Positions 8,412-49,464 of a DNA stretch of 64,000 bases are shown piece by piece (within the stretch, counting starts at the first letter, position 1; each line of letters starts with the position of its first letter). Source of the DNA: an uncultured Gammaproteobacteria bacterium (GTDB lineage: Bacteria; Pseudomonadota; Gammaproteobacteria; Ga0077536). The stretch covers positions 91,388 through 155,387 of the forward strand of contig CALOBG010000021.1 in the NCBI GenBank assembly GCA_942490995.1, given 5' to 3'. The notes below the pieces were generated by a model. The model was not told the origin of the DNA. It did no database searches and saw nothing but the letters and a program-made list of their open reading frames with translations. Made by a program: the position numbers and the translations under genes.

Positions 8412-8464
8412 CGCGCGCGCCAGACACCGCCTGGCAGCAGCCATATGCAACCGAAAATTCAATT

Positions 8465-21476: not shown

Positions 21477-21517
21477 ATAGACTCACACTCAGATCCCAAG
21501 CCGCTCGGAGACAGGAT

Positions 21518-22522: not shown

Positions 22523-22571
22523 CCTACCCACTATCCGACCGACGATTTTTCAGAACGGGATCCGAATTATC

Positions 22572-29925: not shown

Positions 29926-30713
29926 TTAATCGCCCTGACCACAACCATTGACCGCGCCCACCAGGCGTCCTGCACGTCCTGCGGAATATCCAGCGCGTCT
30001 ACCCGCGACAGGTGGATGGCGCTGAAATGTTCGAACAGCCGGCGCTGGTGACCGCGACTCAGCGAATCGATTTCGTTGGACAGATAGGTGAAGCTGCCGC
30101 CAGGATGCAGGTGGGCCGCGGCGTGGGCAAAAAAATGCTCGGCGAAAGTTGTACTGGCAGCGATCTGTTCGATGAACTCGTCTTCGTTCAAGGGGTAGGT
30201 GTGAAAAAAAATCCCATCGAATGCTCCCAATTGCGGCAGAACGTCCTGCCACATGCCGCCGAGCATCTCGATTGCTCGGTCAGGATAGCTATCGCGCCAG
30301 CGCTGAAATCGCCCGATGATATGCTCATTGCATTCGATAATCGTGTGGGTACTAACGCCGCAATCCTGGATCAGGGCCGAGGCAATCCCACGGCCGAAAC
30401 CGATTTCCAGGATATCGCCGTGACTGACCGTCACCGCGTCGGCCATCGCGCGCATCAACGGGATCTGCCAGTCTTCCATGATCTGCTCGTCGCTCAGTTC
30501 AGCCTGCGCGCGGTCCGCGGTGACCAGCTTATCGCTGCCGGCCACGAGCTCGCCCGCCGTGCGGTCCAGCGCGAGCAGGTTATCGGCCAATTCGCTGACC
30601 GCCCGGTTGAGCAGCCAGTTGCGCTGCGCGTCGCGTGGCGGACGGATAAAATCCTCGCGTTTGATCTCGAGGCTGATCGCAAAATCCCGCGTCTTTTTGT
30701 AGCGTCTGGTCAT
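29922..30713 (-). CDS. SAM-dependent methyltransferase of the guanidinoacetate N-methyltransferase (GAMT/RMT2-like) fold.
   Basis: QIPLMRAMADAVTVSHGDILEIGFGRGIAS…THTIIECNEHIIGRFQRW…MWQDVLPQLGAFDGIFFHTYPLNEDEF aligns closely with mammalian GAMT (…RVLEVGFGMAIAAS…HWIIECNDGVFQRL…[29 protein letters not shown]). ATGA overlaps at both ends. Confidence 0.8.
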   Translation of the reverse strand: MTRRYKKTRDFAISLEIKREDFIRPPRDAQRNWLLNRAVSELADNLLALDRTAGELVAGSDKLVTADRAQAELSDEQIMEDWQIPLMRAMADAVTVSHGDILEIGFGRGIASALIQDCGVSTHTIIECNEHIIGRFQRWRDSYPDRAIEMLGGMWQDVLPQLGAFDGIFFHTYPLNEDEFIEQIAASTTFAEHFFAHAAAHLHPGGSFTYLSNEIDSLSRGHQRRLFEHFSAIHLSRVDALDIPQDVQDAWWARSMVVVRAIK

Positions 30714-33577: not shown

Positions 33578-33590
33578 ATGCCCGGCGTCC

Positions 33591-36500
33591 CTACTCGCCA
33601 AACTCTGCGAGCACGCGGTCGAGTTCACCCTGGTCGACGTCGGCGGCAGGGAAATCCGAGGGCGTCAGGGCCGCGACGGCGCCGCTCGCGGCAAGCTCGA
33701 TGATGGCGCCCAGTTCGCCAATGACAGCGCCCGCGAGGTGCTGGATGGTCGAAGGCCGATAACAATCAGCAGCATAGGACCAGTCCAGCCGTAGTCGACC
33801 GTCAAAAATGTACGCATTGATTTCGAGCAGGTAGGGACGCGGTCCGGTAGCAGCCGTTACCGCGCGCAGCGGCCCCGACAGGCGCACACGCGCGTCACCG
33901 CGCGTAGCCCTGTCCCATTGGCCGAGATAATTGAACAATACCGGCGCAGAACCGGCACGCGAGACGCGCTCAGCGCCGTAATGAAGCAGGTTGTATCCGG
34001 CGCCGTGGGCGGGCACCGCACGCAGCTTTTCCTTGACCTGCCTGACGGTTTCAATCAGCGTCTCGCCGCTGCGACACTCAAACAACACCGGGTAGATGCT
34101 CGTGAACCAACCCACGGTGCGGGTCAGATCCATACCTTCGACCAGGGCTTCGCGGCCATGGCCTTCGAGGTCGAATTTCAGCAGCGACCCGCCGTGCCAG
34201 CGCGCCAGCACGCGAACCACGCCGGCAAGCAGGACTTCTGGCACCTGGACACGCCAGCTCGCCGGCACCTGATGGACCAATGCCGCGGTCTGTTCGCGAT
34301 CGAGCCTGCTCGTCAAGCGTGTACTGCTGGCATAGTCGTTCACGCTTTCGGGGTAATCGCAGCGCAGGGTCATGACACTGGCATCAATCTGTGCCCAGTA
34401 CTCCGCCTCGGCTGGCCCGGCGCTGCCCGCGTGCTGCGCCGCCAGCGCCAGCGCCCAATCCGCCACCGCGGTGGTTTTGCGCGGTAGCGTCACCGCCGCG
34501 TGGGCTGCCAGCTGCTGGCACGCTCGCTCGAGGTCATCAAGCAGTATCCACCATGACACGCCATCGATGAGCAGGTGGTGCACGGCAATTACCAGCAGAG
34601 AAGCCGGTTGATCGGCGCCGCGTGGCAGCCAGCGCAACTGCACCAGCGGACCGCGTTCGATATCCATCGTGCCGTTCATTGCGTCGATCAGGGCATCGAG
34701 ATCGCTGGCGCTTTCTTCTCCCGGTGCCGGGCCGGGTATCGGCGTCGCCGCGACGCTCGGCGGGTCTATACACTGCCGCCAACCGTTGGCCCTGCGCTCG
34801 AAACGACTGCGCAGGACATCATGATGGGCCACGACCTGCGCCCACGCCTGGGTCAGCACCGTAACCTCCAGACCCGCGTCGACTTCGACCACGGCAACCT
34901 GACTCAGCGCTGGCGGCGGGTCCTCAGCGAGTTCGAAAAAGCGCCGTTGCATCGGCAGCAGCTCAACCTCACCTTCGACAGGTCCCTGTGTTGCGGACGT
35001 CGTGGGAACGTCGCGGCATACCGCGGCCGCCGCGGCCACGGTCGGAAAGTCAAACAGATCCTGCGGCGTCAGTTCGAGGCCCGCGGCCCGGGCTCGCGCG
35101 ACAATCTGAATATTGAGAATCGAGTCGCCGCCGAGGTCAAAAAAATTGTCATTGATGCCGATGCGGGCAAGACCGAAAACTTCACACCAGATGCCGGCGA
35201 GCAGGTGTTCGTTACGGCTGACCGGCGCGACAAATTCTGTATCCAGACCGGTGCGGGCATACTGCGGCGCCGGCAGGCGTGCGCGATCGAGTTTGCCATT
35301 CCCGGTCAACGGCACGGCCTCCAGCCGTACGAAATGGCGCGGCAGGTATTCCGACGGCAATCGCGCGCCGAGGTGCTCCAGCAGGCGGCCGCGATCCAGC
35401 TCGTCATCGGCGACGTAATAAGCGATCAGCTCGATGTGCCGACGGGTCGCTGCGGACGCTTCTTGATGGTGGTAGCCGATAGACGCGAGTATGCGTCTGA
35501 CGTTTTCGATGTTGATATCGTCATCGAGTTCGGCGAGGGCGGCGTTGCGCTCCTTGTGGCCGAGCCTCACATCCCAGCTATAAGGCAAGGCGTAGTTGTG
35601 ATGCCGGCGCTCGGTTTTGTGTACGTGGATGCCGGCCTCATTGATCAGACAATTTGTCGAACGCCCGGTGTCCGCCGGACGGACCCAGGGCGCGCCGTGC
35701 TGCAGATAATCGAGCATGTCACCCAGGGTCGCGTCGCAGTAGCGGTAGAAATCGACAAACTTGATTTCCTCGAACACGCGATCGGATCGGAACAGCGAGA
35801 CGTCGAGCGCCGCGGATACCGCGTCGTGCATGCGATGATAAATCTTGCGTGCTTCGATGATATTGCGATCGATTTCAGCAGGATCGTAAATTTTCTGCCG
35901 AAACTGATCGGCGACCCGGGTCTCGAAGATCTGTCCGCGCGAAAGTCCGGTAAAGATGTGGCGTATGCCGCGTTCGTGAGCGAGATTCATCGACAGCGTG
36001 TATATGGTCTTGAAGCAGCCATTGCAGACATTGCTGTGACGCTTGAGGCTGTCGACGAAGATAGCGTCCATCGCGGGCGTGGTGGCACTGACCAGTTCGA
36101 GTCCGAGTTTATCGACCACCCGGCGGATGTTGTCTTTCGCCCCATCGGAGATGTAGCCGTTGTCGAGGGTAAAGACCAGCGGCGTCAGACCGAGATCGAC
36201 AAGCTGGCACAGCGCGTAGGTACTGTCCTTGCCGCCGCTCAACAGCATCATGCAGTCCGGCGTGCGCGGTGTCGCTGCCCGCACTTCGGCAACGATGTTC
36301 TCGAGGTCCTGCTGGTCGCCGAAATAGCGCATCGCCTGTTCGCGCTCGCGGGCGAAACGGCGGCAGATGCCACACACCCCGGCGCCGTCGAGATCGGCAT
36401 CGGGATGATTGGAGGCGAGACCGCAATGCACGCAGTACTCGATTTCCTGCGCCCGTGCTTCGCGGTCGTCGGCAATCACCACCGCTTCACGCAGCCCCGG

Positions 36501-39134
36501 ATAAGCGGCGAGGACGCTTTCGATTTCGCCCAGCTCGATCCTGATCCCGTTGACCTTGACCTGTTGATCGATGCGTCCAAGATATTCGAGCCGGCCGTCG
36601 GCGTTCCATCGAGCCAGGTCGCCGCTGAGATACATACGCCCACCACGATTGAACGGATCGTCAACGAAGCGGGCCGCGGTTTCCTCATCGCGGCCGAGAT
36701 AACCCAACGCGACCCCGGCGCCGCCTATCGCGATTTCGCCAGCGACACCGCGCGGCTGCAGACCAAGCCTGCTGTCCAGAACGTAGATTGTCGCGCCGTC
36801 AATCGGGCGGCCTATCGGTACCGAGATATCCGTATCGGCATGCGGGTCGAAACGATGGATCATGCATCCGACGGTCGCCTCGGTCGGCCCGTACTCGTTG
36901 TAGATCTCAATCTCGTCGTTGAAATATTTCGAAACCGTACGCGCAACATCGGTTTTCAGGTCGTCGCCGCCGAGGATCATGACCCGCAGCCGCGAATGAG
37001 TCAGATCCATCGCTTGCAACAGCGCCAGGTGCGCGGGCGTAAGCTTGATGATATCGGCGCGGTTGTCCTCGATCACCCGTCGTAAGACGATGTCGCGGCC
37101 GCCCTCGAGTTCCGGGTAGACCAGTACCCGCCCGCCGCTCAGCAACGGCAGGAAACACGTCGTTACCGTCAGATCGAAAGCCATGGCCGTGAACAGGGGA
37201 AAGGTCAGCTGCGCGCCGCGCACATACTGACGCTCCGCCCAGTCGAGATAATTGACAACATTGGCGTGGGTCACGGCAACGCCTTTCGGAGCACCGCTCG
37301 ACCCCGAAGTGTAGATGACGTAGACACGATCGTTGGCCGTTACTACAGGCGCCGGATTGCTATCGGGACGCCCCGCCGCGGCGCGCGCGAAATCCGCGTA
37401 GACCTCGGTCGCCCAGCGTTCGTCACGCGGCTGGCCCGCGGCGGAATCGACCAGCCACAGTCGCGCGCCGGCGTCCGCAACGCAGTGCGCGCGACGCGCG
37501 CCGGGATCGTTCGTGGACAGCGGCAGGTACGCCGCACCGCATTTGATCACCGCTAGCATTGCGATCACTGCCTCGGCAGAGCGGCGCATGCCAAGCGCAA
37601 CCACGTCGCCCGCGCCGATGCCGCGCGCACGCAATTCGTGCGCGAGACGGTTGGCGTCGCTGTTCAAGCTGCCGTAGTTCCATACCACGCCGTCACATTC
37701 GAGCGCCGGCAAATCACGATGGCGCGCTGCACAGTGCTCGAAACGCGCGCCCAGGGTCAGCGTCCGATCTGCGGAGGTCTGGATCCGCCCTCGCGCGACG
37801 GAGAGCAGGGCGCGGCGGGCCGCGGCGTCAAGGAGATTTACGGCGGTTATCGAACCTTCAGGTTGGTCAACAAATGCGTCAATGATGGCGAGCAGGTGCC
37901 GCCGCGCGGCATCCGCGTCATCGACACTGAAGCTGTCCTCGTTGAGATCGAGAAACAGCCCGAAAACGTCGGCCTGGTCGAAATCGTGCACCTGCAGACG
38001 CAACACGTGGTTGCGATCGCCATAGCCCGCATGCACCCACTCGGCGGTGGTCGGATGCGCATCGAACTCGCCGAACTCGGCGGTGATGTAATTCAGTACC
38101 ACGTTAATGCCGCGGACCTGGTCAAAACCGCTTGCGCCGGGCTGCGCGTTGAGCAGGAATGCCCGTGCCTCGCGCGCGACCTGCTGGTACACGCTCGCGA
38201 ATGTGTCGTCGGCGCTGAGGGTGAGCGTCAACGGGAAGATTTCGATGAACAGGCCAGCGGTCTGCTTGAACGACTTGCTCGATCGATTGTGCGCCGGCGT
38301 GCCGATCACCACCTCACCAACGCCGGTGATCCGGTACAGGTAGACCGCGAGCGCGGTAAAAAAAATCTGAAAGCGCGCCAGGTCGCTGTTGAAGGCGCGA
38401 AACGCCGGCGCTTCGGCGAGCGCTCGAATCGCTCGCGAGCGGTCTGCACCAAGCGCTACCGCGTAGCGCCGGGTACGGCCGCTGCGGGTCGGCGCCGGGC
38501 GCCGATAAAACTGCGGCACCGGACCGCTCAGATCGCCCTTGGCGCGCCAGTATTCGCGCGCGCGCCGGCACGCCCGCGAGTCCTGGTGACGTCGTTCGTA
38601 CTCGACATAGTCGCGGTAGGGAGGCAGCGCAGGCGTCGGCGTTTCGAGGCCGGACCTGGCGGCCTGATACAGCGCGCTCATATGGCGGAAAATCACCGAT
38701 ACCGACCAGGCATCGGTGACGACGTGGTGTTGGTTGAAATACCACACCGATTCCTGCGCGGAAAGGTACAACAGTGCGGTATCGAACAGGCGACGCGCGT
38801 AGTCGAACGGGCGCCGCGCGCGGGCCTCCAGCCATGCGGCCAGGGCCTCGCGCGGATCACGGCGGCTGGAGAAGTCGACGGTTTCGAGGGCGAAATCCAT
38901 CGTTTCGAGGACGCGCTGGCGCGACTCCCCGGCGTCTTCGTCGATGACCGTACGCATCGCACCGCAGCCCTGCAGCAGGGCGCGAAACGCCCGCTCGAAG
39001 GCATCGGCGTCAAGCGCCGTACCGATATGAAAGGCAAGCACCATGTTGTACAGCGGGTCGTCAGGCTGCAGTCGCTGCCCGGTCCAGATCAGTTCCTGCG
39101 CTCGAGTCAGCCGCATGGACGCTTGATCTTCCAT
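33591..39134 (-). CDS. NRPS: C - A - PCP - C, with the A domain interrupted between A8 and A9 by a ~340-aa TtcA/TtuA-like PP-loop domain.
   Basis: C1 HHVVTDAWS; A3 YTSGSSGAPKG; A4 FDLT; A5 YNEYGPTEATV; A8 GRIDQQVKVNGIRIELGEIE; insertion aa ~899-1237; A9/A10 LPSEYLP…NGKLDR; PCP FFDLGGDSIL; C2 HHLLIDGVSW. 1847 aa. Confidence 0.9.
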   Translation of the reverse strand: MEDQASMRLTRAQELIWTGQRLQPDDPLYNMVLAFHIGTALDADAFERAFRALLQGCGAMRTVIDEDAGESRQRVLETMDFALETVDFSSRRDPREALAAWLEARARRPFDYARRLFDTALLYLSAQESVWYFNQHHVVTDAWSVSVIFRHMSALYQAARSGLETPTPALPPYRDYVEYERRHQDSRACRRAREYWRAKGDLSGPVPQFYRRPAPTRSGRTRRYAVALGADRSRAIRALAEAPAFRAFNSDLARFQIFFTALAVYLYRITGVGEVVIGTPAHNRSSKSFKQTAGLFIEIFPLTLTLSADDTFASVYQQVAREARAFLLNAQPGASGFDQVRGINVVLNYITAEFGEFDAHPTTAEWVHAGYGDRNHVLRLQVHDFDQADVFGLFLDLNEDSFSVDDADAARRHLLAIIDAFVDQPEGSITAVNLLDAAARRALLSVARGRIQTSADRTLTLGARFEHCAARHRDLPALECDGVVWNYGSLNSDANRLAHELRARGIGAGDVVALGMRRSAEAVIAMLAVIKCGAAYLPLSTNDPGARRAHCVADAGARLWLVDSAAGQPRDERWATEVYADFARAAAGRPDSNPAPVVTANDRVYVIYTSGSSGAPKGVAVTHANVVNYLDWAERQYVRGAQLTFPLFTAMAFDLTVTTCFLPLLSGGRVLVYPELEGGRDIVLRRVIEDNRADIIKLTPAHLALLQAMDLTHSRLRVMILGGDDLKTDVARTVSKYFNDEIEIYNEYGPTEATVGCMIHRFDPHADTDISVPIGRPIDGATIYVLDSRLGLQPRGVAGEIAIGGAGVALGYLGRDEETAARFVDDPFNRGGRMYLSGDLARWNADGRLEYLGRIDQQVKVNGIRIELGEIESVLAAYPGLREAVVIADDREARAQEIEYCVHCGLASNHPDADLDGAGVCGICRRFAREREQAMRYFGDQQDLENIVAEVRAATPRTPDCMMLLSGGKDSTYALCQLVDLGLTPLVFTLDNGYISDGAKDNIRRVVDKLGLELVSATTPAMDAIFVDSLKRHSNVCNGCFKTIYTLSMNLAHERGIRHIFTGLSRGQIFETRVADQFRQKIYDPAEIDRNIIEARKIYHRMHDAVSAALDVSLFRSDRVFEEIKFVDFYRYCDATLGDMLDYLQHGAPWVRPADTGRSTNCLINEAGIHVHKTERRHHNYALPYSWDVRLGHKERNAALAELDDDINIENVRRILASIGYHHQEASAATRRHIELIAYYVADDELDRGRLLEHLGARLPSEYLPRHFVRLEAVPLTGNGKLDRARLPAPQYARTGLDTEFVAPVSRNEHLLAGIWCEVFGLARIGINDNFFDLGGDSILNIQIVARARAAGLELTPQDLFDFPTVAAAAAVCRDVPTTSATQGPVEGEVELLPMQRRFFELAEDPPPALSQVAVVEVDAGLEVTVLTQAWAQVVAHHDVLRSRFERRANGWRQCIDPPSVAATPIPGPAPGEESASDLDALIDAMNGTMDIERGPLVQLRWLPRGADQPASLLVIAVHHLLIDGVSWWILLDDLERACQQLAAHAAVTLPRKTTAVADWALALAAQHAGSAGPAEAEYWAQIDASVMTLRCDYPESVNDYASSTRLTSRLDREQTAALVHQVPASWRVQVPEVLLAGVVRVLARWHGGSLLKFDLEGHGREALVEGMDLTRTVGWFTSIYPVLFECRSGETLIETVRQVKEKLRAVPAHGAGYNLLHYGAERVSRAGSAPVLFNYLGQWDRATRGDARVRLSGPLRAVTAATGPRPYLLEINAYIFDGRLRLDWSYAADCYRPSTIQHLAGAVIGELGAIIELAASGAVAALTPSDFPAADVDQGELDRVLAEFGE
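35430..36440 (-). other. Embedded PP-loop ATP pyrophosphatase (adenine-nucleotide alpha-hydrolase) domain of the TtcA/TtuA/Ncs6 type inside the NRPS A domain.
   Basis: CxxC-x16-CxxC (CVHCG…CGIC, aa 901-924), P-loop SGGKDS (aa 966-971; nt 36222-36239 verified), CNGC (aa 1037/1040) and a distal Cys1133 at TtuA-like spacings. Confidence 0.6.
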
Positions 39135-39140: not shown

Positions 39141-39383
39141 CTAGTCGTGGCTGCGCTGCGCGACGTAGGCGGCGATGGTGTTGATCGAACGGAAGTACTC
39201 GATACTGAAATCCTGTGGCGGGATCTCGAACCCGTAGGTCTCCTCGAGGTAACCGACCAGGCGCACCATACCGAGCGAATCGACCACCCCGTCATTGAGC
39301 AGCATATCGTCGTCGCCGACCACGTGCGGACCTTCGAGCAGCTCGTCGTGGATAAAAGCAGCGATGGTGTCCCTGATATTCAC
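39141..39383 (-). CDS. Stand-alone peptidyl/acyl carrier protein.
   Basis: 80 aa, phosphopantetheine-attachment serine in …DGVVDSLGMVRLV…. Sits 13 nt downstream of the stand-alone A domain. Confidence 0.75.
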   Translation of the reverse strand: MNIRDTIAAFIHDELLEGPHVVGDDDMLLNDGVVDSLGMVRLVGYLEETYGFEIPPQDFSIEYFRSINTIAAYVAQRSHD

Positions 39384-39396
39384 GCTCGCTCCTCGC

Positions 39397-40980
39397 TCAG
39401 ACGCGGTTGGTGGTTGTGGACGAATACGCTTCGCGCAGCGCGCGGCGGTCGATTTTACCGCTGGAGGTGCGCGGAAACACCTTGCGCAGCTCGATGGAAC
39501 TCGGCACGGAATACCACGGCAGCGCGCGTTTCAGTTCGCTGGTCAGATCGCCGCTATCGACCCCGGCGTCGCCTTTGAGCGTTACGGCGGCGTGGATCTC
39601 ACCGCCGCCATCGGCGTCGCTTACGACAAAAACGCCAGCCTCTTCGACCACCGCGATGGCGCTCAAGGCGGCCTCGATTTCGTCAAGTTCCACTCGATAA
39701 CCACGCACCTTGACCTGGCGATCCTTGCGCCCGAGAAACCATAGCAGACCGCTGTGATCCTCACGCACCACATCACCGGTGCGATAAAACACTTCCTCGT
39801 GCCCGGCAATGCGCTCGCGACGATAAAACGCGCGTTCATTGAGTTCGGGTCGGCCCCAGTAGCCGCGCATCATGGTCGGTGAACGCACCAGCAGTTCGCC
39901 GTCGACCCCCGGCGGTACCTCGCGGTCCTGCTCATCGACGATCAGGGCCTCAGCGGTGTCGGCAATCGGGCCAATCGGGATGCTGTCCGCGTCCATGGCC
40001 AGATCACGAACCGTGTAATGGGTCACGCCATTGACTTCCGCCGGGCCGTAGATGTTGTCAAAGCTGACCCACGGCAGAACCTCACGTAATGCGCGCAGGT
40101 GTTTGAGCGGCATCGGTTCGCCACCGAATATCGCCCAGCGCAGCGCGCTCAGATCACGTTGTTCCAGCGCACCGCGCAGGAGCAACTGGATCAGCGCGAA
40201 CGGCACGGTATACAGCACCGTAATGCCCTGATCCTGGATCAGCTGTGAATAGCTCGCCGGCAAACGCGTGTAAGCCTCGGGAACAATCGCCGTCGCGCAG
40301 CCTGCCAGTGCGGCCGAAAAAAAATCCATGATCGAGAGATCGAAATGCAGCGGCGCGTGGTTGCTGAGCACGTCCTCGGCGTGGAACCGATACTCGTGCG
40401 CAGCCCAGCGTGCGAAACTCAGGCCGCTGGCATGGGTGTGCATCATACCCTTGGGCGCACCGGTCGAACCGGAGGTATACATGATGTAAGCGAGGTCCTG
40501 CTCGATAATTTTGCGCCGTGGCGGCGCGGCAGTCAGCGCGCCGCGAACTTCGCTCGGCGTGTAGTTACGCAAACCCTCGCCCGTCGCAGCGGCCAATCCG
40601 ACGGTCGCCTCGAGTGCGCATCCTTGAGCGATCTGGGCCAGCCTGCTTGCTTTGTGTTCCCCTGTAACGACGCAACGCATGCCACAGCTGCGCGCGATTT
40701 CGGCGCTGCGGGCCGGCGGCGCGGCCGGGTCGAGTGGCACGTATGCTGCGCCCGCCTTCATGATCCCGTACAGGGCGACCGCCGTGTCGATGCATTTGTC
40801 CATGTAAATGCCGACCGGTTCGCCGCGCGTCACACCGGCATCGACGAGGATATGGGCGAGCGCATTGGATCGCGCGGCCAGGTCACCGTAGCTCAGGGAT
40901 TGCTCGAGAAACTTGATCGCCGGTCGTTCGGGGGTGCGTTCCGCGACGTAATCTGGGGCATGGTAAATAAGCGTTATCAT
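39397..40980 (-). CDS. Stand-alone NRPS-type adenylation enzyme (amino-acid-AMP ligase) that loads the adjacent carrier protein.
   Basis: A1 LSYGDL, A2 LKAGAAYVPLD, A3 YIMYTSGSTGAPKG, A4 FDLS (Asp235 present), A5 NIYGPAE, A7 YRTGDV, A8 GRKDRQVKVRGYRVELDEIE, A10 SSGKIDR. Confidence 0.85.
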   Translation of the reverse strand: MITLIYHAPDYVAERTPERPAIKFLEQSLSYGDLAARSNALAHILVDAGVTRGEPVGIYMDKCIDTAVALYGIMKAGAAYVPLDPAAPPARSAEIARSCGMRCVVTGEHKASRLAQIAQGCALEATVGLAAATGEGLRNYTPSEVRGALTAAPPRRKIIEQDLAYIMYTSGSTGAPKGMMHTHASGLSFARWAAHEYRFHAEDVLSNHAPLHFDLSIMDFFSAALAGCATAIVPEAYTRLPASYSQLIQDQGITVLYTVPFALIQLLLRGALEQRDLSALRWAIFGGEPMPLKHLRALREVLPWVSFDNIYGPAEVNGVTHYTVRDLAMDADSIPIGPIADTAEALIVDEQDREVPPGVDGELLVRSPTMMRGYWGRPELNERAFYRRERIAGHEEVFYRTGDVVREDHSGLLWFLGRKDRQVKVRGYRVELDEIEAALSAIAVVEEAGVFVVSDADGGGEIHAAVTLKGDAGVDSGDLTSELKRALPWYSVPSSIELRKVFPRTSSGKIDRRALREAYSSTTTNRV

Positions 40981-41006
40981 GATCGTCGTCTGTCCGCCGC
41001 CGGTTT

Positions 41007-42155
41007 CTACAACCCGAGCATGCGGGCGACGATATTGCGCTGGATATCGGAGGTTCCGGCGTAGATCAAGCCGCCAACCGCGTCGCGCAAATCGCGTTCG
41101 ATGCCGGCCTCGCTGACATAACCCTCGCCGCCGTGGACGCGGATTGCATCGAGACTCGACTGGGTAAAACTTTCGCTGATATGCAGCTTGAGCAGGGCCG
41201 CCTCCGCGATCGCGCTGCGCCCGGACATTTTGAGCCAGGCGACTTTGTACAACAGCAGCCTAGCGGTTTCGAGGCGCAACTTCATATCAACGATACGGTT
41301 GGATACGGACTGAAATTTACCGATGGCCTGACCAAACTGGTGGCGCTTGCGTGCGTACGCGATAGTTTCGTCGAGCTGTCTGGCCATCGCGCCCAGTTGG
41401 CTGGCAAGGATGCTGCATCGCTCCCATTCCAGGAACCCGTTCGAAAGGCTGACACCGGCCCCCTCCGCCCCGAGCCGTTGCGCGACCGGCACCAGGCAGT
41501 CTTCGAATATCAATTCGCCGAACGGCACACTACGCAGGCCCATCTTCTCGCGATTGACGCCGACCCGGCAGCCGGCGGACGCAGTTTCGACCAGGAACGC
41601 ACTGATCCCCCATTTGCCAACCGACGGATCGGTACTCGCGAAAACCAACGCGACGTCTGCCACCGGGCCAAGTGAGACATAGCGCTTTTTGCCGTTCAGG
41701 ACATAGCCGCCGTCACATGCTGTCGCGCGGGTCGCCAGGCTGAACACGTCGGAGCCGGTGTCATCTTCGGTAATGGCATGGCAACCGATCATGTCACCGG
41801 CGGCGAGTGGCGGAAGAAAGCGCGCTTTCAACGCTTCGCTGCCGGCCTGCACGATGGGCAGTTGTACCGTCCACATCTGCGCATTAAGGGCAAACGCCAG
41901 ACCGTTGTCACGGCAGCCATAGCCGAAACCTTCCATGGCCAGGATTGCGGTTAGAAAATCGGTGTCCGGAAATCCACTATAGGCTGTCGGTAACGACATG
42001 GCCTGGATGCCGAACTCGGCGCAGGCGCGCCATTTTTCCTGCGGAAAGCGACTCAGGTGATCGTCGACGTCGACTTCGTGCGTGAGCCTGGTCGCGGCGA
42101 ATTGTTGCACCGCCGCCTGGCGCGCGAGTTGGGCTTCGGTCCAGTTGAAATCCAT
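41007..42155 (-). CDS. Acyl-CoA dehydrogenase-family FAD enzyme (PltE/RedW-like acyl- or aminoacyl-S-carrier-protein dehydrogenase).
   Basis: 382 aa with the ACAD three-domain fold (…GKKRYVSLGPVADVALVFA…; C-terminal …IYAGTSDIQRNIVARMLGL). Directly upstream of the stand-alone A and PCP genes. Confidence 0.8.
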   Translation of the reverse strand: MDFNWTEAQLARQAAVQQFAATRLTHEVDVDDHLSRFPQEKWRACAEFGIQAMSLPTAYSGFPDTDFLTAILAMEGFGYGCRDNGLAFALNAQMWTVQLPIVQAGSEALKARFLPPLAAGDMIGCHAITEDDTGSDVFSLATRATACDGGYVLNGKKRYVSLGPVADVALVFASTDPSVGKWGISAFLVETASAGCRVGVNREKMGLRSVPFGELIFEDCLVPVAQRLGAEGAGVSLSNGFLEWERCSILASQLGAMARQLDETIAYARKRHQFGQAIGKFQSVSNRIVDMKLRLETARLLLYKVAWLKMSGRSAIAEAALLKLHISESFTQSSLDAIRVHGGEGYVSEAGIERDLRDAVGGLIYAGTSDIQRNIVARMLGL

Positions 42156-42164
42156 GGCGGCGCG

Positions 42165-43472
42165 CTAGCCGAACAGCACAAGCAGGCGTTGCAGCAGCGC
42201 GCCAGCCGGCAGGTTGATTTCGAATGCGCGTTCTACGAACCAATAGACGGCAATGACGATCAGGACAACAGCGCCGCCCGGCACCACGACCTTCAGGTAC
42301 AGATCGCTGGCCCGGATCAAGTAAATCACAGGAAAGACGGCCGCAACGATGGCCAGCTGGCCGAGCTCGACGCCGAGATTGAATCCCAGCAGGGAGTGTA
42401 CGAGGTAGCCGGCCGGAATGCCGATCTCGGACAACACGCTGGCGAAACCGAAGCCGTGGAACAACCCGAACACGAATACTACCCAGCCGATGCGGCCATG
42501 GAAGATGGGCACCAGCAGGTCGAACGCCGCGATGGCGATCGACGCCGCGATCACCGATTCGACGAATCGCGATGATAGTTCGACCGTGCCCAGGGTGGCG
42601 TAGCTGAGCGTGATGGTATGCGCGACGGTAAACAGGGTCACGATTTTGATCAGGTAGATCAGCGCCGGCCGCGCCGATGGCAGCGCTCGCCAATGACTCG
42701 AGGATCGCTGCAGTACGCCGGGCAACAGCAGCGCGACGAGGAAAAGAATGTGATCGATCCCGATCCAGATGTGGTGCGTGCCAAGCGAAACCATGGCCAC
42801 GAAACCGCGCCACGTCGACCCCTGGGATAAATCCAGCGTCTGCGTGGTCGCGTTCGGTGCGAAAACCAGCGCGATATTGGTTTCATTGTCAAACGTACCG
42901 GTCTGCCAATTGCGCTCAATCACCAGCAGACCGCGATGCTGCGGTTGTTCGTCAAACAGCACTTCGTAGCGCACATCGATCGCAGCAGGCGGCCGTGGCT
43001 GGTTGGGAAGTGCGAATTCGAGCACGACGTACTGCGCTTCGGTGGTCGGGAGGAACCGAATCGGCCCGAATTCAAGTGTTGCCGTGCGTCCTTCAAGCGC
43101 AAACGCAACGCGCTCACGATAGTAGGCATGAATGGCGGCAGTATGCGCTGCAAGATTATCGCCCGTGGCGCTGCCGTCAGTGGGCAGTCCAAGATCCAGC
43201 GCGAGGTTCAGATCGGCCGTGGTGATTTCCAGGCGGCCGCCGACGCGTTCGCCATCGAGCTGCAGGAACAGGTAACTCTGGCCGAGCTTATGGGCGTGGG
43301 CGACACCGATGCTGCCGAACAGCACAGCGGTCACGATCAATAACCACGGCGCGCGCAGCGGGTTGGGCCTCGGCGGTCGGGAAACTGGACGCGGGTTCAA
43401 GATAATTTCAGCGTACCTTGTGAGTTGCGGGTAAGACCGCCCGCCGCCGGCAGGTTCCGGTGTAGACGACAT
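42165..43472 (-). CDS. HupE/UreJ_2-family membrane protein (putative Ni/Co-type metal permease) with an N-terminal periplasmic domain; the start is uncertain.
   Basis: Motif LGTHHIWIGIDHILFLVALLLPG and the downstream His/Gly-rich TM helix FGLFHGFGFASVL. First gene of the co-oriented NRPS operon. Start set at ATG 43472. Confidence 0.55.
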   Translation of the reverse strand: MSSTPEPAGGGRSYPQLTRYAEIILNPRPVSRPPRPNPLRAPWLLIVTAVLFGSIGVAHAHKLGQSYLFLQLDGERVGGRLEITTADLNLALDLGLPTDGSATGDNLAAHTAAIHAYYRERVAFALEGRTATLEFGPIRFLPTTEAQYVVLEFALPNQPRPPAAIDVRYEVLFDEQPQHRGLLVIERNWQTGTFDNETNIALVFAPNATTQTLDLSQGSTWRGFVAMVSLGTHHIWIGIDHILFLVALLLPGVLQRSSSHWRALPSARPALIYLIKIVTLFTVAHTITLSYATLGTVELSSRFVESVIAASIAIAAFDLLVPIFHGRIGWVVFVFGLFHGFGFASVLSEIGIPAGYLVHSLLGFNLGVELGQLAIVAAVFPVIYLIRASDLYLKVVVPGGAVVLIVIAVYWFVERAFEINLPAGALLQRLLVLFG

Positions 43473-43681
43473 ACTAGTGTAGCAGCGGCTTTCCGTGCGC
43501 GACCGGTGCTGCCACGGTAAATTTGTGTGAACTTTCCCATAATTACCCGTCAGACATTGCGATCGCGGCGCAACGATGACATCGTGACGCGTGCGCTGGC
43601 AGCCGGGATCGACGACAACGGCGAACCACATACGGGCGCGCGGACACTCAACACAATGTATCCACGAAATCCGGCATCGTC

Positions 43682-44779
43682 ATGCAGTCTCTGATCCTGA
43701 GCGCGAAGGACCTCGCGACGCTCGTGCGTCGGGTCGGACTCGATACCTTGTTCGACGACGTTGTAAGTGCCCTGCACGACGCGTGTAGTTCATTTACGCC
43801 GGAACGATACACGGTAGCGGTGCGCGAAGGGTTTTATTACCGCGAACCGGAAGTCGGGTTACTCGAATGGATGCCGACCCTGGAAGCCGGGCGCAGCGCG
43901 ACGCTCAAGGTCGTCAGTTACCACCCGCACAACGCGCAAAGCCATGGCCTGCCGACTATCCTTTCGACCTTGCTTGCGTTTGACCCACGCAGTGGACACC
44001 TGTGTGGACTGGTTGACGGCACCTTCGCCACGGCGTTGCGTACGGCGGCAGCGTCGGTGGTGGCAAGCCGGATCCTCGCCCCGCCGGACGCGCGCAGCAT
44101 CGGGTTCATTGGCTGCGGTGCACAGGCGCTTGCCCATCTGCATGGCCTGCGGCGCAGCTTCGACCTCGACACCGTGTACCTGTTCGATACCGAGCCGACC
44201 ACCAGCGCCAGTTTCGCCGCCCGTGCTCGCGGTCTGGGTCTCGATGGACTCAGCTTTGTGCCGGTCAGTGCGGCACAGGTACTGGCGGCGGCGGACATTC
44301 TTGTCACCGCTACCTCTGTCGCAATCGATGCCGAGCCCGTGGTCAGCGATGGCGTGCATCGCGGATCCCTGCATATCAATGCCGTGGGGTCTGATTTTCC
44401 GGGTAAGTGCGAGCTGCCATTGAGCCTGCTGAAGCGCGCGTTGGTGTGTCCGGACGTAGTTGAGCAGGCGCAAAAAGAAGGCGAATGCCAGCGACTGACG
44501 AACGCCGAAATCGGCCCCGACCTGGTGCAGTTGGTGCAGTCGGCCGACCGTTACCGCGATGCCCGCAGCCGCTTGACGGTATTCGACTCCACCGGTTGGG
44601 GCCTGGAAGACCACGTTACGCTCAAGATACTGCTCGCGTATGCCGGCGAACTCGGCATCGGCACACCGACCACGATCGAAACAAGCGCTGCCGATCCGCG
44701 CAACCCGTATTGCTTTGTCCACGACGCCAACGCAGCGATCATCCCGGACGCCCGCCTGCGGGCCATCGACGCCGGCTAG
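43682..44779 (+). CDS. Ornithine cyclodeaminase / mu-crystallin-family protein.
   Basis: 365 aa with an OCD-like Rossmann region (…IGFIGCGAQALAHL…) and family-typical N-terminus. Divergent from the NRPS operon. Confidence 0.75.
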   Translation: MQSLILSAKDLATLVRRVGLDTLFDDVVSALHDACSSFTPERYTVAVREGFYYREPEVGLLEWMPTLEAGRSATLKVVSYHPHNAQSHGLPTILSTLLAFDPRSGHLCGLVDGTFATALRTAAASVVASRILAPPDARSIGFIGCGAQALAHLHGLRRSFDLDTVYLFDTEPTTSASFAARARGLGLDGLSFVPVSAAQVLAAADILVTATSVAIDAEPVVSDGVHRGSLHINAVGSDFPGKCELPLSLLKRALVCPDVVEQAQKEGECQRLTNAEIGPDLVQLVQSADRYRDARSRLTVFDSTGWGLEDHVTLKILLAYAGELGIGTPTTIETSAADPRNPYCFVHDANAAIIPDARLRAIDAG

Positions 44780-44815: not shown

Positions 44816-45577
44816 TTGACCGGCAAAAACAGCGATCACGCCTGGCTTATCGGCTTGCACGCGGACGCCGAGGGCCTGGCGCGCGCCCGCGCCGTACTCA
44901 GTGACGCCGAACTGGAGCGCGCCGCGCGGTTCGCCTTCGCGACCGTCGCCGAACGCTGGATCCTCGCCCACGCCGCCTGTCGAAGGATCCTGGCGCGCTA
45001 CCTCGACAAGGATCCGCGCGCGCTGATATTTGCAGAAAATGACAACGGCAAACCCTGTCTGGCCGGCACGCCCGGCAGGTCACGCCTGTATTTCAACTTT
45101 TCGCGCTCTCACCAATACGCCCTGCTGGCGATCAGCTACCACAGCGAAATCGGCGCGGATATCGAACATTGCGCGGCAATCGACGATCTCGAAAGCGTCG
45201 CCCGGCGCTTTTTCTGTCCCGCCGAGCGTCGCACTATCCTTGCGCTCAGCGGCGCACAACGAGTGCAGGCGTTCTACCGGTGCTGGACGCGCAAGGAAGC
45301 TATTCTCAAGGCCAGCGGCAAAGGTTTGCGGGTCGCGCTCAACAGTTTCGAGGTGTCGCTGCAGGACCGGCCGCGTCCGCGCCTGATCAGCGTCGCCGAC
45401 GACGAAGCTGAGGCCGTACGCTGGAGTCTGCACCACTACGCAAGCGACGCGTACATCGCCGCGGTCGCCTACCGCGACGCGCCGCGCAACCTGCGCTGGT
45501 TCATCGAACCCTCGAAAGAGCCGTCACCGGCGTTCGCATCGATCAGTCGATCCGCGGAGAAATGCCCAGGCATTTGA
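44816..45577 (+). CDS. Sfp-type 4'-phosphopantetheinyl transferase.
   Basis: Motifs …FNFSRSHQYALLAI… and WTRKEAILKASGKGL (the W/FxxKEAxxK signature). Confidence 0.8.
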   Translation: MTGKNSDHAWLIGLHADAEGLARARAVLSDAELERAARFAFATVAERWILAHAACRRILARYLDKDPRALIFAENDNGKPCLAGTPGRSRLYFNFSRSHQYALLAISYHSEIGADIEHCAAIDDLESVARRFFCPAERRTILALSGAQRVQAFYRCWTRKEAILKASGKGLRVALNSFEVSLQDRPRPRLISVADDEAEAVRWSLHHYASDAYIAAVAYRDAPRNLRWFIEPSKEPSPAFASISRSAEKCPGI

Positions 45578-47036: not shown

Positions 47037-47133
47037 ACAGGCGTGCGAAAACTTCGGACACGATTCGTGGCGTGCGTGTCTTGTTATTCCGCACACCTAA
47101 TTTAGTCGCGCGGGAGAACTCGGCGGCCGCGGC

Positions 47134-48663: not shown

Positions 48664-48685
48664 AATCGAAACTCCCCGAGAATAT

Positions 48686-48734
48686 TATTGACGTAGTGTC
48701 AATAAGCTAAATCCTTATTGACGTACTGTCAATA
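48686..48734. promoter_or_regulatory. Tandem pair of 19-bp palindromic operator-like sites between the BVMO gene and a divergent TetR gene.
   Basis: TATTGACGTAGTGTCAATA (48686-48704) and TATTGACGTACTGTCAATA (48716-48734). Both are perfect inverted repeats of TATTGAC/GTCAATA, 30 bp start-to-start, in an AT-rich patch. Confidence 0.5.
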
Positions 48735-48807
48735 GAGGCCACCGGCAGCTATACTGACAGGTCCCGGCGTCGGTGCCGCATGGCGCCACCAGAGAGACAC
48801 TATCCTT

Positions 48808-49428: not shown

Positions 49429-49464
49429 AACCAGCCGGGGCGGTGCTTGTAGAGCGATGCGTTT

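What the first reader, a model, noticed from the sequence alone, without database searches (positions are those of the whole stretch)
39141..44779. PltF/PltL/PltE-like starter cassette (stand-alone A - PCP - acyl-CoA-dehydrogenase) next to an ornithine cyclodeaminase: possible pyrrolyl-2-carboxyl-S-PCP starter
A stand-alone A domain with Asp235 in FDLS (alpha-amino-acid substrate; first code residues D-L-M), an 80-aa carrier protein and an ACAD-family flavoenzyme are adjacent. This is the canonical trio that converts L-Pro to pyrrolyl-S-PCP (PltF/L/E, RedM/O/W). The divergent OCD-family gene could supply L-proline (or pipecolate, if it is lysine-cyclodeaminase-like) from ornithine. An Sfp-type PPTase follows.
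Basis: inference. Interest (0 to 1): 0.5.

Follow-up and report, generated by a model that had tools for sequence, protein, structure and literature searches.

The report
Proline-type starter cassette in orphan NRPS
Three small adjacent genes load a ring-shaped amino acid (proline or its six-ring cousin pipecolate) onto a carrier protein and oxidise it there, which starts an uncharacterised peptide assembly line found in bacteria of at least eight phyla.

Summary
On the minus strand lie an acyl-CoA-dehydrogenase-fold flavoenzyme (41007-42155), a free-standing adenylation protein (39397-40980) and an 80-residue carrier protein (39141-39383). Each has its best solved-structure match in a proline-to-pyrrole or proline-to-pyrroline starter system (AnaB, PigA, PltF, PigI, PltL). 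A fatty-acyl (MbtN-type) reading is excluded.

- **Oxidation state.** The flavoenzyme's nearest characterised relative is AnaB, which stops at pyrroline. A pyrrole product is therefore not established.
- **Substrate.** The "ornithine cyclodeaminase" matches lysine cyclodeaminase far better (250 against 139 bits). The binding-pocket code (DLMYIGIGVK; PltF is DLLYLALVCK) has glycines where PltF and PigI have Ala301 and Val330. Pipecolate is a serious alternative to proline.

The cassette starts a conserved orphan cluster (about 25033-45577), recovered in 80 species-representative genomes spanning at least eight phyla. Its other features are:
- a HupE/UreJ-like membrane protein;
- an Asn-type module whose adenylation domain is interrupted by an amidotransferase-like PP-loop domain, an insert type I did not find described in the searched literature;
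- a guanidinoacetate-methyltransferase-like protein sitting inside a naturally split adenylation domain.

It is a new variant of a known kind.

The parts
41007..42155 (-). Prolyl-carrier-protein-dehydrogenase-family flavoenzyme (ACAD fold), 382 aa. The catalytic Glu245 lies in LEWERC. There is no Glu in the YAGTSD motif.
   Evidence: Pfam ACAD N, M and C domains. PDB: AnaB 4IRN 370 bits, PigA 5ZW0 296, 6CXT 292, generic ACADs at most 227. NCBIfam: PigA 391 and RedW 354 bits, next family 259, MbtN 68. Sister to AnaB in a neighbour-joining tree; identity 44.7% to AnaB, 39.9% to PigA, 40.7% to 6CXT. The Glu aligns with the residue mutated in PigA entry 6AF6.
39397..40980 (-). Free-standing adenylation protein, 527 aa. 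Specificity code DLMYIGIGVK.
   Evidence: AMP-binding E 3e-86. TIGR01733 at 367 bits, above its cut-off. The pocket fragment's best PDB hits are PltF 6O6E (84 bits) and PigI 7THN (69 bits). Code read from those alignments and checked.
39141..39383 (-). Type II peptidyl carrier protein, 80 aa. Phosphopantetheine attachment at Ser36 (GVVDSLG).
   Evidence: PP-binding E 1e-7. Best PDB hits are 6CXT_A (the carrier protein co-crystallised with the 6CXT dehydrogenase), 2MY5, and PltL 2N5H/6O6E_E. Sequence.
43682..44779 (+). Lysine-cyclodeaminase-like member of the OCD/mu-crystallin family, 365 aa, transcribed divergently from the operon.
   Evidence: Pfam OCD_Mu_crystall E 1e-54. PDB: S. pristinaespiralis lysine cyclodeaminase 250 bits, P. 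putida ornithine cyclodeaminase 139 bits. Homologues occur in 51 of the 81 locus records (80 distinct loci), usually next to the ACAD.
44816..45577 (+). Sfp/HetI-type 4'-phosphopantetheinyl transferase, 253 aa.
   Evidence: Pfam ACPS E 4.5e-22 and AASDHPPT_N. NCBIfam HetI at 161 bits, below the equivalog cut-off.
42165..43631 (-). HupE_UreJ_2-family polytopic membrane protein, first gene of the operon. The listed ORF is probably over-extended at its 5' end.
   Evidence: Pfam PF13795 E 1e-41. Homologues occur in 71 of the 81 locus records, directly upstream of the ACAD, and align only from residue about 95-115 onwards. Sequence.
33591..39134 (-). NRPS1, 1847 aa: C, A (code DLTKIGEVGK, Asn-like), PP-loop insert, T, E-like domain. 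It begins with a C domain that needs an upstream donor, namely the cassette's PCP.
   Evidence: Pfam domains. HHVVTDAWS at residue 136 and HHLLIDGVS at residue 1519, plus TIGR01720. The code is conserved in 32 or more loci.
35469..36446 (-). Insert between motifs A8 and A9 of the NRPS1 A domain: a zinc ribbon plus a PP-loop (SGGKDS) ATP-pyrophosphatase domain of the N-acetyl-sugar-amidotransferase (WbuX) type.
   Evidence: TIGR03573 WbuX E 4e-27. AF2 model pLDDT 94. Foldseek best hit 8WEX, E 3e-9, TM 0.63-0.65; then the YcfA, TtuA and LarE sulfurtransferases. Invariant residues; coordinates.
30710..33628 (-). NRPS2 first piece: C plus A-core, ending about 70 residues after motif A8.
   Evidence: Pfam. 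Sequence. The same split occurs in Bacteroidota locus L015.
29922..30713 (-). Guanidinoacetate-N-methyltransferase-like protein, 263 aa. It is encoded at the A8/A9 split of module 2, overlapping both neighbours by 4 bp.
   Evidence: PDB GAMT 1XCJ, E 6e-24. Homologues at 51-57% identity over the full length in 20 loci.
29248..29925 (-). NRPS2 last piece: A-subdomain (A9, A10) plus T.
   Evidence: AMP-binding_C and PP-binding. Sequence.
25033..27477 (-). Terminal C-T-TE protein with no A domain of its own.
   Evidence: Pfam Condensation, PP-binding and Thioesterase. Homologues in related loci.
27607..29208 (+). Conserved 533-aa polytopic membrane protein with no family assignment.
   Evidence: No Pfam or NCBIfam hit. 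tblastn finds homologues at 26-32% identity over about 520 residues in 17 or more related loci, often next to the ACAD. Sequence.

Best explanation
This is the initiation cassette of a trans-loaded (type II) nonribosomal peptide pathway.

1. The HetI-like PPTase converts the 80-aa PCP to its holo form.
2. The free-standing A protein adenylates a cyclic imino acid and thioesterifies it to the PCP. The acid is most likely L-proline. It could be L-pipecolate made from lysine by the adjacent cyclodeaminase.
3. The FAD enzyme of the AnaB/PigA/PltE family uses Glu245 as its base and dehydrogenates the tethered ring. The product is either a cyclic imine/enamine (two electrons, as for AnaB) or the pyrrole (four electrons, as for PltE).
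4. The oxidised ring-carbonyl-S-PCP is the donor for the N-terminal C domain of NRPS1, which joins it to an Asn-type residue.
5. The chain then passes through an amidotransferase-like PP-loop domain, an epimerase-like domain, a second module with a GAMT-like methyltransferase, and a C-T-TE release protein.

Shown here: the domain identities, the family placement, the catalytic residue, the gene order, and the conservation of the cluster. Inferred: the substrate, the number of electrons removed, the starter role (from collinearity, and because NRPS1 begins with a C domain and there is no other loading module), and everything about the product.
For: - All three cassette proteins have their best solved-structure matches in Pro-oxidising starter systems. 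ACAD: AnaB 370, PigA 296 and 6CXT 292 bits against at most 227 for other ACADs. A-domain pocket: PltF 84 and PigI 69 bits. PCP: 6CXT_A and PltL.
- The NCBIfam PigA (391 bits) and RedW (354 bits) models are the top two, and the next family scores 259.
- The ACAD shares the catalytic signature of the solved prolyl-carrier-protein dehydrogenases. It has a Glu in the W-E-[RK] motif, the residue mutated to Ala in PigA entry 6AF6. It lacks the Glu of the generic YEGTSE motif.
- The code DLMYIGIGVK follows the PltF (DLLYLALVCK) and PigI (DLFYIAWVCK) pattern D-[LIM]-h-Y-h-[AG]-h-x-[CV]-K. Relatives in the same cluster family carry near-canonical codes such as DILYIAAVCK.
- The operon is tight, and NRPS1 starts with an intact C domain (HHVVTDAWS).
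- The order HupE, ACAD, A, PCP, NRPS1, NRPS2 is conserved in 80 distinct loci from at least eight phyla.
- Only one ACAD alignment column separates clusters with and without the cyclodeaminase. This argues, weakly, for one common substrate.
Against: - No biochemical data exist for any member of this cluster family.
- The ACAD scores below the equivalog cut-offs of the PigA (500) and RedW (650) models.
- The code is identical to PltF at only 4 of 10 positions. It has Gly at 301 and 330, which should enlarge the pocket.
- The cyclodeaminase is lysine-cyclodeaminase-like. This fits pipecolate better than proline, although that enzyme also converts ornithine (PMC5935100).
- The nearest characterised ACAD, AnaB, does not make a pyrrole (PMC3252866).
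Confidence: 0.78

Rival explanations
1. L-Proline, topped up from ornithine by the cyclodeaminase, is loaded and oxidised by four electrons to pyrrolyl-2-carboxyl-S-PCP, as with PltF/L/E and RedM/O/W.
For: The trio matches the PltF, PltL and PigA families. Lysine cyclodeaminase also converts ornithine to proline in vitro (PMC5935100). Most proteobacterial relatives with the same Gly301/Gly330 code type lack a cyclodeaminase within 10 kb: 10 of 11. Their substrate must therefore come from ordinary metabolism.
Against: The ACAD family groups with AnaB, a two-electron enzyme, rather than with PigA or 6CXT. No halogenase or other pyrrole-tailoring gene is present in the cluster. The code deviates from PltF and PigI at 301, 330 and 331.
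Confidence: 0.28
2. Pipecolate variant. The lysine-cyclodeaminase-like enzyme makes L-pipecolate. The A protein's enlarged pocket loads it. The flavoenzyme then produces a tetrahydropyridine-carboxyl (or further oxidised) starter. No ACAD-type carrier-protein dehydrogenase is known to do this.
For: The cyclodeaminase matches lysine cyclodeaminase at 250 bits against 139 for ornithine cyclodeaminase. In loci with at least 6 kb of upstream sequence, A proteins with Gly301/Gln330 have the cyclodeaminase in 35 of 36 cases. Those with Ala or Ser at 301 have it in 0 of 9 (Fisher p 2e-5, not corrected for shared ancestry). From memory, canonical NRPS pipecolate codes also carry Gly301 where proline codes carry Ala301. 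That recollection is a lead, not a test. Also from memory, dedicated cyclodeaminases in known clusters supply pipecolate.
Against: All characterised members of the ACAD, A and PCP families act on proline. The window's own code subgroup (Gly301/Gly330) usually lacks the cyclodeaminase. The ACAD shows almost no sequence change between clusters with and without the cyclodeaminase. No paper holding "pipecolyl" together with the carrier-protein and dehydrogenation terms was found in the searchable library.
Confidence: 0.35
3. AnaB-type outcome. Proline is loaded but oxidised by only two electrons, to a pyrroline-5-carboxyl or dehydroprolyl thioester. Its imine or enamine nitrogen then takes part in later ring chemistry with the PP-loop domain.
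For: AnaB is the closest characterised relative: 370 bits, 44.7% identity, and sister in the neighbour-joining tree. AnaB's product is (S)-pyrroline-5-carboxyl-ACP (PMC3252866).
Against: No sequence determinants of two- versus four-electron oxidation are known to me, and the literature read here names none. The tree has only four reference sequences and no support values. AnaB feeds a PKS, not an NRPS C domain.
Confidence: 0.3
4. Fatty-acyl reading, of the MbtM/MbtL/MbtN type. The A protein is a fatty acyl-AMP ligase and the ACAD desaturates an acyl-ACP, giving a lipopeptide.
For: The same three gene types occur together in mycobactin acyl-chain biosynthesis (established knowledge).
Against: The MbtN model scores only 68 bits against 391 for PigA. 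The A protein passes the amino-acid adenylation model TIGR01733 and has Asp235 and Lys517. The pocket matches PltF.
Confidence: 0.01

Closest known systems
AnaC / AnaD / AnaB (anatoxin-a starter, Oscillatoria PCC 6506)
   Same: A free-standing A protein, a small carrier protein and an ACAD-fold prolyl-carrier-protein dehydrogenase, primed by an Sfp-type PPTase. AnaB is the closest characterised relative of the ACAD: 370 bits, 44.7% identity, sister group.
   Different: AnaB's product starts a polyketide synthase, whereas here the acceptor is an NRPS condensation domain. The reconstituted AnaC/AnaD/AnaB system described involves no cyclodeaminase. Identity is only about 45%. The substrate and the extent of oxidation are untested here.
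PltF / PltL / PltE, PigI / PigG / PigA, RedM / RedO / RedW (pyrrolyl-2-carboxyl-S-PCP formation)
   Same: The same three-protein logic. PltF and PigI are the best structural-database matches for the A-domain pocket, PltL is among the best for the PCP, and the PigA and RedW models are the best NCBIfam hits for the ACAD. The catalytic Glu position is shared with PigA.
   Different: The ACAD falls below both equivalog cut-offs and groups with AnaB instead. The code is DLMYIGIGVK against DLLYLALVCK and DLFYIAWVCK. There is no halogenase or KS partner. The downstream partner is an NRPS.
Lysine cyclodeaminases RapL / FkbL / SpLCD (pipecolate supply for rapamycin, FK506, pristinamycin)
   Same: The best PDB match of the divergent gene, aligned end to end at 250 bits. 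It is encoded inside a biosynthetic cluster, as those enzymes are.
   Different: The known examples feed pipecolate to in-line NRPS modules, not to a PltF-type loader followed by an ACAD. Lys-versus-Orn preference cannot be read from the sequence, and SpLCD itself accepts Orn and DABA.
MbtM / MbtL / MbtN (mycobactin acyl-ACP desaturation)
   Same: The gene-type trio of adenylating enzyme, carrier protein and ACAD.
   Different: That system has a fatty-acid substrate and a FAAL-type ligase. The MbtN model scores 68 bits here. Not a member.
WbuX / PseA-type N-acetyl sugar amidotransferases (8WEX), for the NRPS1 insert
   Same: A zinc ribbon plus PP-loop architecture. TIGR03573 E 4e-27. Best fold match, TM about 0.64.
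   Different: Here the domain is embedded between A8 and A9 of an NRPS adenylation domain. It scores below the family cut-off (95 against 203 bits). The glutaminase partners that I recall accompanying WbuX (HisH/HisF-like) were not seen in the cluster. Sulfur-transfer chemistry (as in TtuA, YcfA and LarE, the next-best folds) cannot be excluded.

Membership tests
Prolyl-carrier-protein dehydrogenases (AnaB / PigA / RedW / PltE clade of the ACAD superfamily) | Three-domain ACAD fold | tested here: met
   Pfam Acyl-CoA_dh_N, _M and _1 all significant, covering residues 6-380.
Prolyl-carrier-protein dehydrogenases (AnaB / PigA / RedW / PltE clade of the ACAD superfamily) | Closer to characterised members than to any other ACAD | tested here: met
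   The top four PDB hits score 292-370 bits and the next scores 227. NCBIfam PigA 391 and RedW 354 against 259 for the next family. The neighbour-joining tree places the family inside the clade, next to AnaB.
Prolyl-carrier-protein dehydrogenases (AnaB / PigA / RedW / PltE clade of the ACAD superfamily) | Catalytic Glu in the W-E-[RK] motif, and no Glu in the C-terminal YEGTSE motif | tested here: met
   LEWERC (Glu245) aligns with the PigA Glu that is Ala in entry 6AF6. YAGTSD replaces YEGTSE, as in AnaB, PigA and 6CXT.
Prolyl-carrier-protein dehydrogenases (AnaB / PigA / RedW / PltE clade of the ACAD superfamily) | Reaches the curated equivalog score of PigA or RedW | tested here: not met
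   391 against a cut-off of 500, and 354 against 650. It is a clade member, not an ortholog of either.
Prolyl-carrier-protein dehydrogenases (AnaB / PigA / RedW / PltE clade of the ACAD superfamily) | Oxidises prolyl-S-carrier protein (by 2 or 4 electrons) | not testable with these tools
   Needs reconstitution and carrier-protein mass spectrometry.
Type II prolyl-AMP ligases (PltF / PigI / RedM / AnaC type) | Free-standing amino-acid adenylation protein with Asp235 and Lys517, encoded next to its own small PCP | tested here: met
   527 aa with no C or T domain. TIGR01733 above its cut-off. HFDLS and SSGKIDR motifs. The PCP starts 13 bp downstream.
Type II prolyl-AMP ligases (PltF / PigI / RedM / AnaC type) | Specificity code of the PltF type (DLLYLALVCK) | tested here: inconclusive
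   DLMYIGIGVK is identical to PltF at 4 of 10 positions (D, L, Y, K) and has same-class substitutions at another four. It has Gly for Ala at 301, Gly for Val at 330 and Val for Cys at 331. Cluster relatives range from DILYIAAVCK to DMLYLGVQCK.
Type II prolyl-AMP ligases (PltF / PigI / RedM / AnaC type) | Selective activation of L-proline | not testable with these tools
   Needs ATP-PPi exchange or loading assays with Pro, Pip and analogues.
Lysine cyclodeaminase (RapL / SpLCD) | OCD/mu-crystallin fold, with closest similarity to characterised lysine cyclodeaminases | tested here: met
   Pfam E 1e-54. SpLCD scores 250 bits over residues 1-345, against 139 bits for P. putida ornithine cyclodeaminase.
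Lysine cyclodeaminase (RapL / SpLCD) | Preference for L-lysine over L-ornithine | not testable with these tools
   The structural paper names no single discriminating residue, and SpLCD accepts Lys, Orn and DABA (PMC5935100). The window has Ser where SpLCD has Ala235 and the ornithine cyclodeaminase has Gly.
MbtN-type acyl-ACP dehydrogenase cassette | ACAD matching the MbtN model, paired with a fatty acyl-AMP ligase | tested here: not met
   MbtN scores 68 bits (cut-off 700). The ligase is an amino-acid adenylation domain.

The most novel reading that the evidence does not exclude
The cassette makes an oxidised six-membered starter. The lysine-cyclodeaminase-like enzyme supplies L-pipecolate, the PltF-like loader (pocket enlarged by Gly301 and Gly330) tethers it, and the AnaB-like flavoenzyme dehydrogenates pipecolyl-S-PCP. 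No ACAD-type carrier-protein dehydrogenase is known to do this. The ring is then joined to Asn and processed by an NRPS-embedded PP-loop domain that turns a carbonyl into an amidine or thio-carbonyl. That could give a small nitrogen- or sulfur-rich metal-binding peptide, handled by the co-conserved HupE/UreJ-like permease.
Probability: 0.3. Interest if true: 0.75.

Novelty: new variant of a known kind. Interest (0 to 1): 0.55.

Why it matters
The starter cassette itself is a recognisable relative of the proline-to-pyrrole and proline-to-pyrroline systems, so it is not new in kind. It matters for three reasons.

- **An unusual pairing.** I know of no characterised pathway that combines a lysine-cyclodeaminase-like supply enzyme with a PltF-type loader and an AnaB-type dehydrogenase. 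This makes a concrete question testable: can this enzyme family oxidise a six-membered ring, and which pocket residues (301, 330) set the ring size?
- **An orphan cluster with wide reach.** The cassette heads a cluster conserved at 57-69% ACAD identity. It occurs in Pseudomonadota, Cyanobacteriota, Bacteroidota, Acidobacteriota, Gemmatimonadota, Chloroflexota, Verrucomicrobiota and Ignavibacteriota, largely from metagenome-assembled genomes. That breadth suggests a product of general ecological use.
- **Undescribed assembly-line features.** The assembly line has an amidotransferase-like PP-loop insert in an adenylation domain. It also has an adenylation domain naturally split around a GAMT-like protein. 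My searches of the open literature found no description of either.

Tried and rejected
- **Source genome.** Exact look-ups of the ACAD found no contig. Cluster-member look-ups gave no names. The source organism therefore stays unidentified. Its neighbours and its closest relatives point to a gammaproteobacterium.
- **Frameshift in module 2.** I considered that module 2, split into three ORFs, was a frameshift or pseudogene. I rejected this because Bacteroidota locus L015 has the same split with the same 4-bp overlap.
- **Gene 23556-25004.** I considered it the missing A domain for the C-T-TE protein. I rejected this because it is a FadD-type acyl-CoA ligase and has only about 25% cross-hits in related loci.
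- **Flanking genes.** I considered the flanking BVMO, TetR, luciferase-like and ACAD genes as tailoring genes. I rejected this because none has a counterpart in any related locus.
- **Literature.** I searched for a PP-loop or WbuX domain in an NRPS, pipecolyl-carrier-protein dehydrogenation, GAMT with NRPS, HupE with NRPS, and the literal specificity codes. None returned anything relevant.
- **Riboswitches.** An Rfam scan for a metal or cofactor riboswitch found nothing. The promoter scan of the divergent intergenic region found nothing usable.
- **ACAD pocket remodelling.** A column-by-column search for changes between clusters with and without the cyclodeaminase found only one Met/Leu column. 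It does not settle the ring size.
- **A failed call.** One Pfam call failed on bad coordinates.

Full report
**1. What is in the sequence**

On the minus strand, in transcriptional order, they are:
- an acyl-CoA-dehydrogenase-fold protein (41007-42155; all three ACAD domains);
- a 527-aa free-standing adenylation protein (39397-40980; AMP-binding E 3e-86);
- an 80-aa carrier protein (39141-39383; PP-binding E 1e-7).

The gaps between these genes are 6-26 bp. Directly downstream, 6 bp after the PCP, begins an 1847-aa NRPS (33591-39134) whose first domain is a condensation domain.

Two genes are transcribed divergently: an OCD/mu-crystallin-family gene (43682-44779) and a HetI-like phosphopantetheinyl transferase (44816-45577).

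The PCP has its serine in GVVDSLG.

**2. Is it a proline-type cassette or a fatty-acyl one?**

It does not.
- Against the PDB, the four best matches are AnaB (4IRN, 370 bits), PigA (5ZW0, 296), its mutant 6AF6 (293) and 6CXT (292). The first three carry depositor names as prolyl-carrier-protein dehydrogenases.
- 6CXT is an ACAD crystallised with a 77-residue carrier protein. From memory I believe this pair is Bmp3/Bmp1 of a bromopyrrole pathway.
- All other ACADs score 227 bits or less.
- In NCBIfam the PigA and RedW models lead at 391 and 354 bits, and the next family scores 259. The mycobactin acyl-ACP dehydrogenase MbtN scores 68.
- The protein also shares the catalytic layout of these enzymes. 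Its Glu245 in LEWERC aligns with the PigA glutamate that is alanine in 6AF6. The generic YEGTSE glutamate is absent (YAGTSD), as in AnaB, PigA and 6CXT.

The A-domain pocket region (residues about 200-350) matches PltF (6O6E, 84 bits) and PigI (7THN, 69 bits) ahead of every other solved adenylation domain. The PCP's best solved relatives are the carrier protein of 6CXT, 2MY5 and PltL. Three independent proteins therefore point to the same kind of system.

**3. Specificity code**

From the alignments the ten Stachelhaus positions read as follows.

| Protein | Code |
|---|---|
| Window A protein | DLMYIGIGVK |
| PltF | DLLYLALVCK |
| PigI | DLFYIAWVCK |

Four positions are identical to PltF, and four more carry same-class substitutions. 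Positions 301 (Ala to Gly), 330 (Val to Gly) and 331 (Cys to Val) differ. The first two changes should enlarge the pocket.

The A proteins of the 80 related loci follow the pattern D-[LIM]-h-[YF]-h-[GAS]-h-[QGV]-[CV]-K. Examples run from near-canonical DILYIAAVCK to the commonest form DMLYLGVQCK.

**4. Pyrrole or pyrroline?**

I built a neighbour-joining tree from the window ACAD, 20 cluster relatives, AnaB, PigA, 6CXT and a generic ACAD. The cluster family is monophyletic and sister to AnaB. Identities to the window protein are 44.7% (AnaB), 39.9% (PigA) and 40.7% (6CXT).

AnaB converts prolyl-AnaD to (S)-pyrroline-5-carboxyl-AnaD, a two-electron oxidation (PMC3252866). The PltE/RedW/PigA type gives the pyrrole, which is established knowledge. 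I know of no sequence determinant for the difference, and the tree is small and has no support values. The extent of oxidation is therefore open. The cluster holds no halogenase or other pyrrole-tailoring gene.

**5. Proline or pipecolate?**

The divergent "OCD" gene matches Streptomyces pristinaespiralis lysine cyclodeaminase end to end at 250 bits. P. putida ornithine cyclodeaminase scores only 139 bits. That enzyme prefers lysine but also converts ornithine and 2,4-diaminobutyrate, and the structural paper names no simple discriminating residue (PMC5935100).

The gene belongs to the cluster. Homologues at 40-55% identity sit next to the ACAD in 51 of the 81 locus records.

Its presence tracks the A-domain code. 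Among loci with at least 6 kb of upstream sequence:

| Residues at 301 / 330 | With cyclodeaminase | Without |
|---|---|---|
| Gly / Gln | 35 | 1 |
| Gly / Gly (the window's type) | 1 | 10 |
| Ala / Val, Ala / Gln, Ser / Gln | 0 | 9 |

The window itself is Gly/Gly and has the cyclodeaminase. The association between Gly301 and the cyclodeaminase gives Fisher p 2e-5, but the loci are related, so this overstates the evidence.

Arguments for pipecolate:
- the cyclodeaminase resembles lysine cyclodeaminase;
- the pocket is enlarged;
- from memory, dedicated cyclodeaminases in known clusters supply pipecolate;
- also from memory, in-line pipecolate modules carry Gly301 where proline modules carry Ala301.

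Arguments for proline:
- every characterised relative of all three cassette proteins acts on proline;
- most clusters with the window's code type have no cyclodeaminase nearby, and contig-length matching among the top 120 cyclodeaminase homologues found none on those contigs;
- only one ACAD alignment column (Met or Leu at window residue 321) separates the two sets of clusters.

I put proline at roughly 0.5-0.55, pipecolate at about 0.35, and something else at the remainder.

**6. The assembly line the cassette feeds**

- **NRPS1** is C, A, insert, T and an epimerase-like domain (HHLLIDGVS plus TIGR01720).
  - Its A code is DLTKIGEVGK. It is conserved in more than 30 loci and, from memory of the Stachelhaus table, is an Asn code.
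  - Between motifs A8 and A9 sits a 326-residue insert. It carries two CxxC pairs, an SGGKDS PP-loop, and an invariant CxxC plus one further Cys.
  - The insert matches the N-acetyl-sugar-amidotransferase model TIGR03573 (E 4e-27, below its cut-off).
  - An AlphaFold model (pLDDT 94) matches 8WEX best (E 3e-9, TM 0.63-0.65). The sulfur-inserting PP-loop enzymes YcfA, TtuA and LarE come next.
  - The chemistry is therefore adenylation of a carbonyl oxygen, followed by substitution with nitrogen (giving an amidine or a ring) or with sulfur. I cannot tell which.
- **Module 2** is encoded in three overlapping ORFs: C plus A-core (30710-33628), a 263-aa protein resembling guanidinoacetate N-methyltransferase (29922-30713; PDB 1XCJ, E 6e-24), and A-subdomain plus T (29248-29925). 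The same split occurs in Bacteroidota locus L015, so it is natural.
- **A C-T-TE protein** (25033-27477) ends the line.
- **A conserved 533-aa membrane protein** with no family assignment (27607-29208, plus strand) has homologues in 17 or more related loci.

**7. Distribution and novelty**

A scan of one genome per species found 243 stretches encoding ACAD relatives. The best 80 share 57-69% identity with the window protein. They come from Gamma-, Beta- and Alphaproteobacteria, Cyanobacteria (Leptolyngbya PCC 7375, Adonisia, Crocosphaera, Dapis), Bacteroidota (Dokdonia, Arenibacter, Hyunsoonleella, Saprospiraceae), Acidobacteriota, Gemmatimonadota, Chloroflexota, Verrucomicrobiota and Ignavibacteriota. 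The gene order HupE, (cyclodeaminase), ACAD, A, PCP, NRPS1, NRPS2 is conserved among them.

The flanking BVMO, TetR and luciferase-type genes of the window have no counterparts there. The cluster therefore spans about 25033-45577.

The literature searches, itemised under "tried and rejected", found no description of this cluster or of its unusual domains. The library searched is open-access only, so this absence is not proof.

**8. Verdict**

The specific claim that pyrrolyl-2-carboxyl-S-PCP is made from ornithine-derived proline is only one of several live possibilities, at about 0.28. I class the cassette as a new variant of a known kind. Most of its interest lies in the possible pipecolate chemistry and in the orphan, phylum-spanning cluster that it starts.

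Noticed in passing
window 35469-36446 (-), residues 897-1222 of NRPS1: The Asn-type adenylation domain is interrupted between motifs A8 and A9 by a zinc-ribbon plus PP-loop (SGGKDS) domain. Its closest relatives are the N-acetyl sugar amidotransferases (TIGR03573 E 4e-27; best fold match 8WEX), followed by the sulfur-inserting enzymes YcfA, TtuA and LarE. Three invariant cysteines (CxxC plus C) could bind a metal cluster. I did not find this type of interrupted A domain in the literature I searched.
   Followed up: partly
window 29248-33628 (-): Module 2's adenylation domain is naturally split into three overlapping ORFs. These are C plus A-core, a 263-aa guanidinoacetate-N-methyltransferase-like protein (PDB 1XCJ, E 6e-24), and A-subdomain plus T. 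The same split with a 4-bp overlap occurs in Bacteroidota locus L015, so it is not a sequencing frameshift.
   Followed up: partly
window 42165-43631 (-): A HupE_UreJ_2-family membrane protein is the first gene of the operon and is conserved directly upstream of the ACAD in 71 of the 81 locus records. HupE/UreJ proteins are linked to nickel and cobalt uptake, which hints at a metal-related product. The listed ORF start is probably too far upstream, because homologues align only from about residue 100.
   Followed up: partly
window 27607-29208 (+): A 533-aa polytopic membrane protein has no Pfam or NCBIfam match. It lies on the opposite strand between the C-T-TE and A-subdomain/T genes. Homologues at 26-32% identity over about 520 residues occur in 17 or more related loci, often adjacent to the ACAD.
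   Followed up: partly
related loci L002-L081, compared with window 39397-40980: The starter A-domain code co-varies with the presence of the cyclodeaminase. Gly301/Gln330 loci have it in 35 of 36 cases, Ala/Ser301 loci in 0 of 9, and Gly301/Gly330 loci in 1 of 11. The window is a rare Gly/Gly cluster that has the gene. One ACAD column (Met or Leu at window residue 321) follows the same split.
   Followed up: yes
window 25033-27477 (-): The terminal C-T-TE protein has no adenylation domain of its own. What loads its T domain is unknown. The nearby 23556-25004 (+) gene is a FadD-type acyl-CoA ligase that is not conserved in related clusters.
   Followed up: partly
window 34000-34950 (-), C-terminal domain of NRPS1: The last "condensation" domain of NRPS1 looks like an epimerisation domain (HHLLIDGVS, with a TIGR01720 match), so the Asn-derived residue is probably converted to the D form. 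Bacteroidota locus L015 has a shorter NRPS1 (1394 aa) without this domain.
   Followed up: no
window 8039-10069, 17319-23357, 46161-50814: Both sides of the cluster are dense in Baeyer-Villiger/FMO-type monooxygenases, TetR/EthR-like regulators, luciferase-like monooxygenases and extra ACAD-like genes. None has a counterpart in the related loci, so they appear to be unrelated catabolic genes. The ORF 46161-47036 has only a sub-threshold ACAD middle-domain hit.
   Followed up: partly
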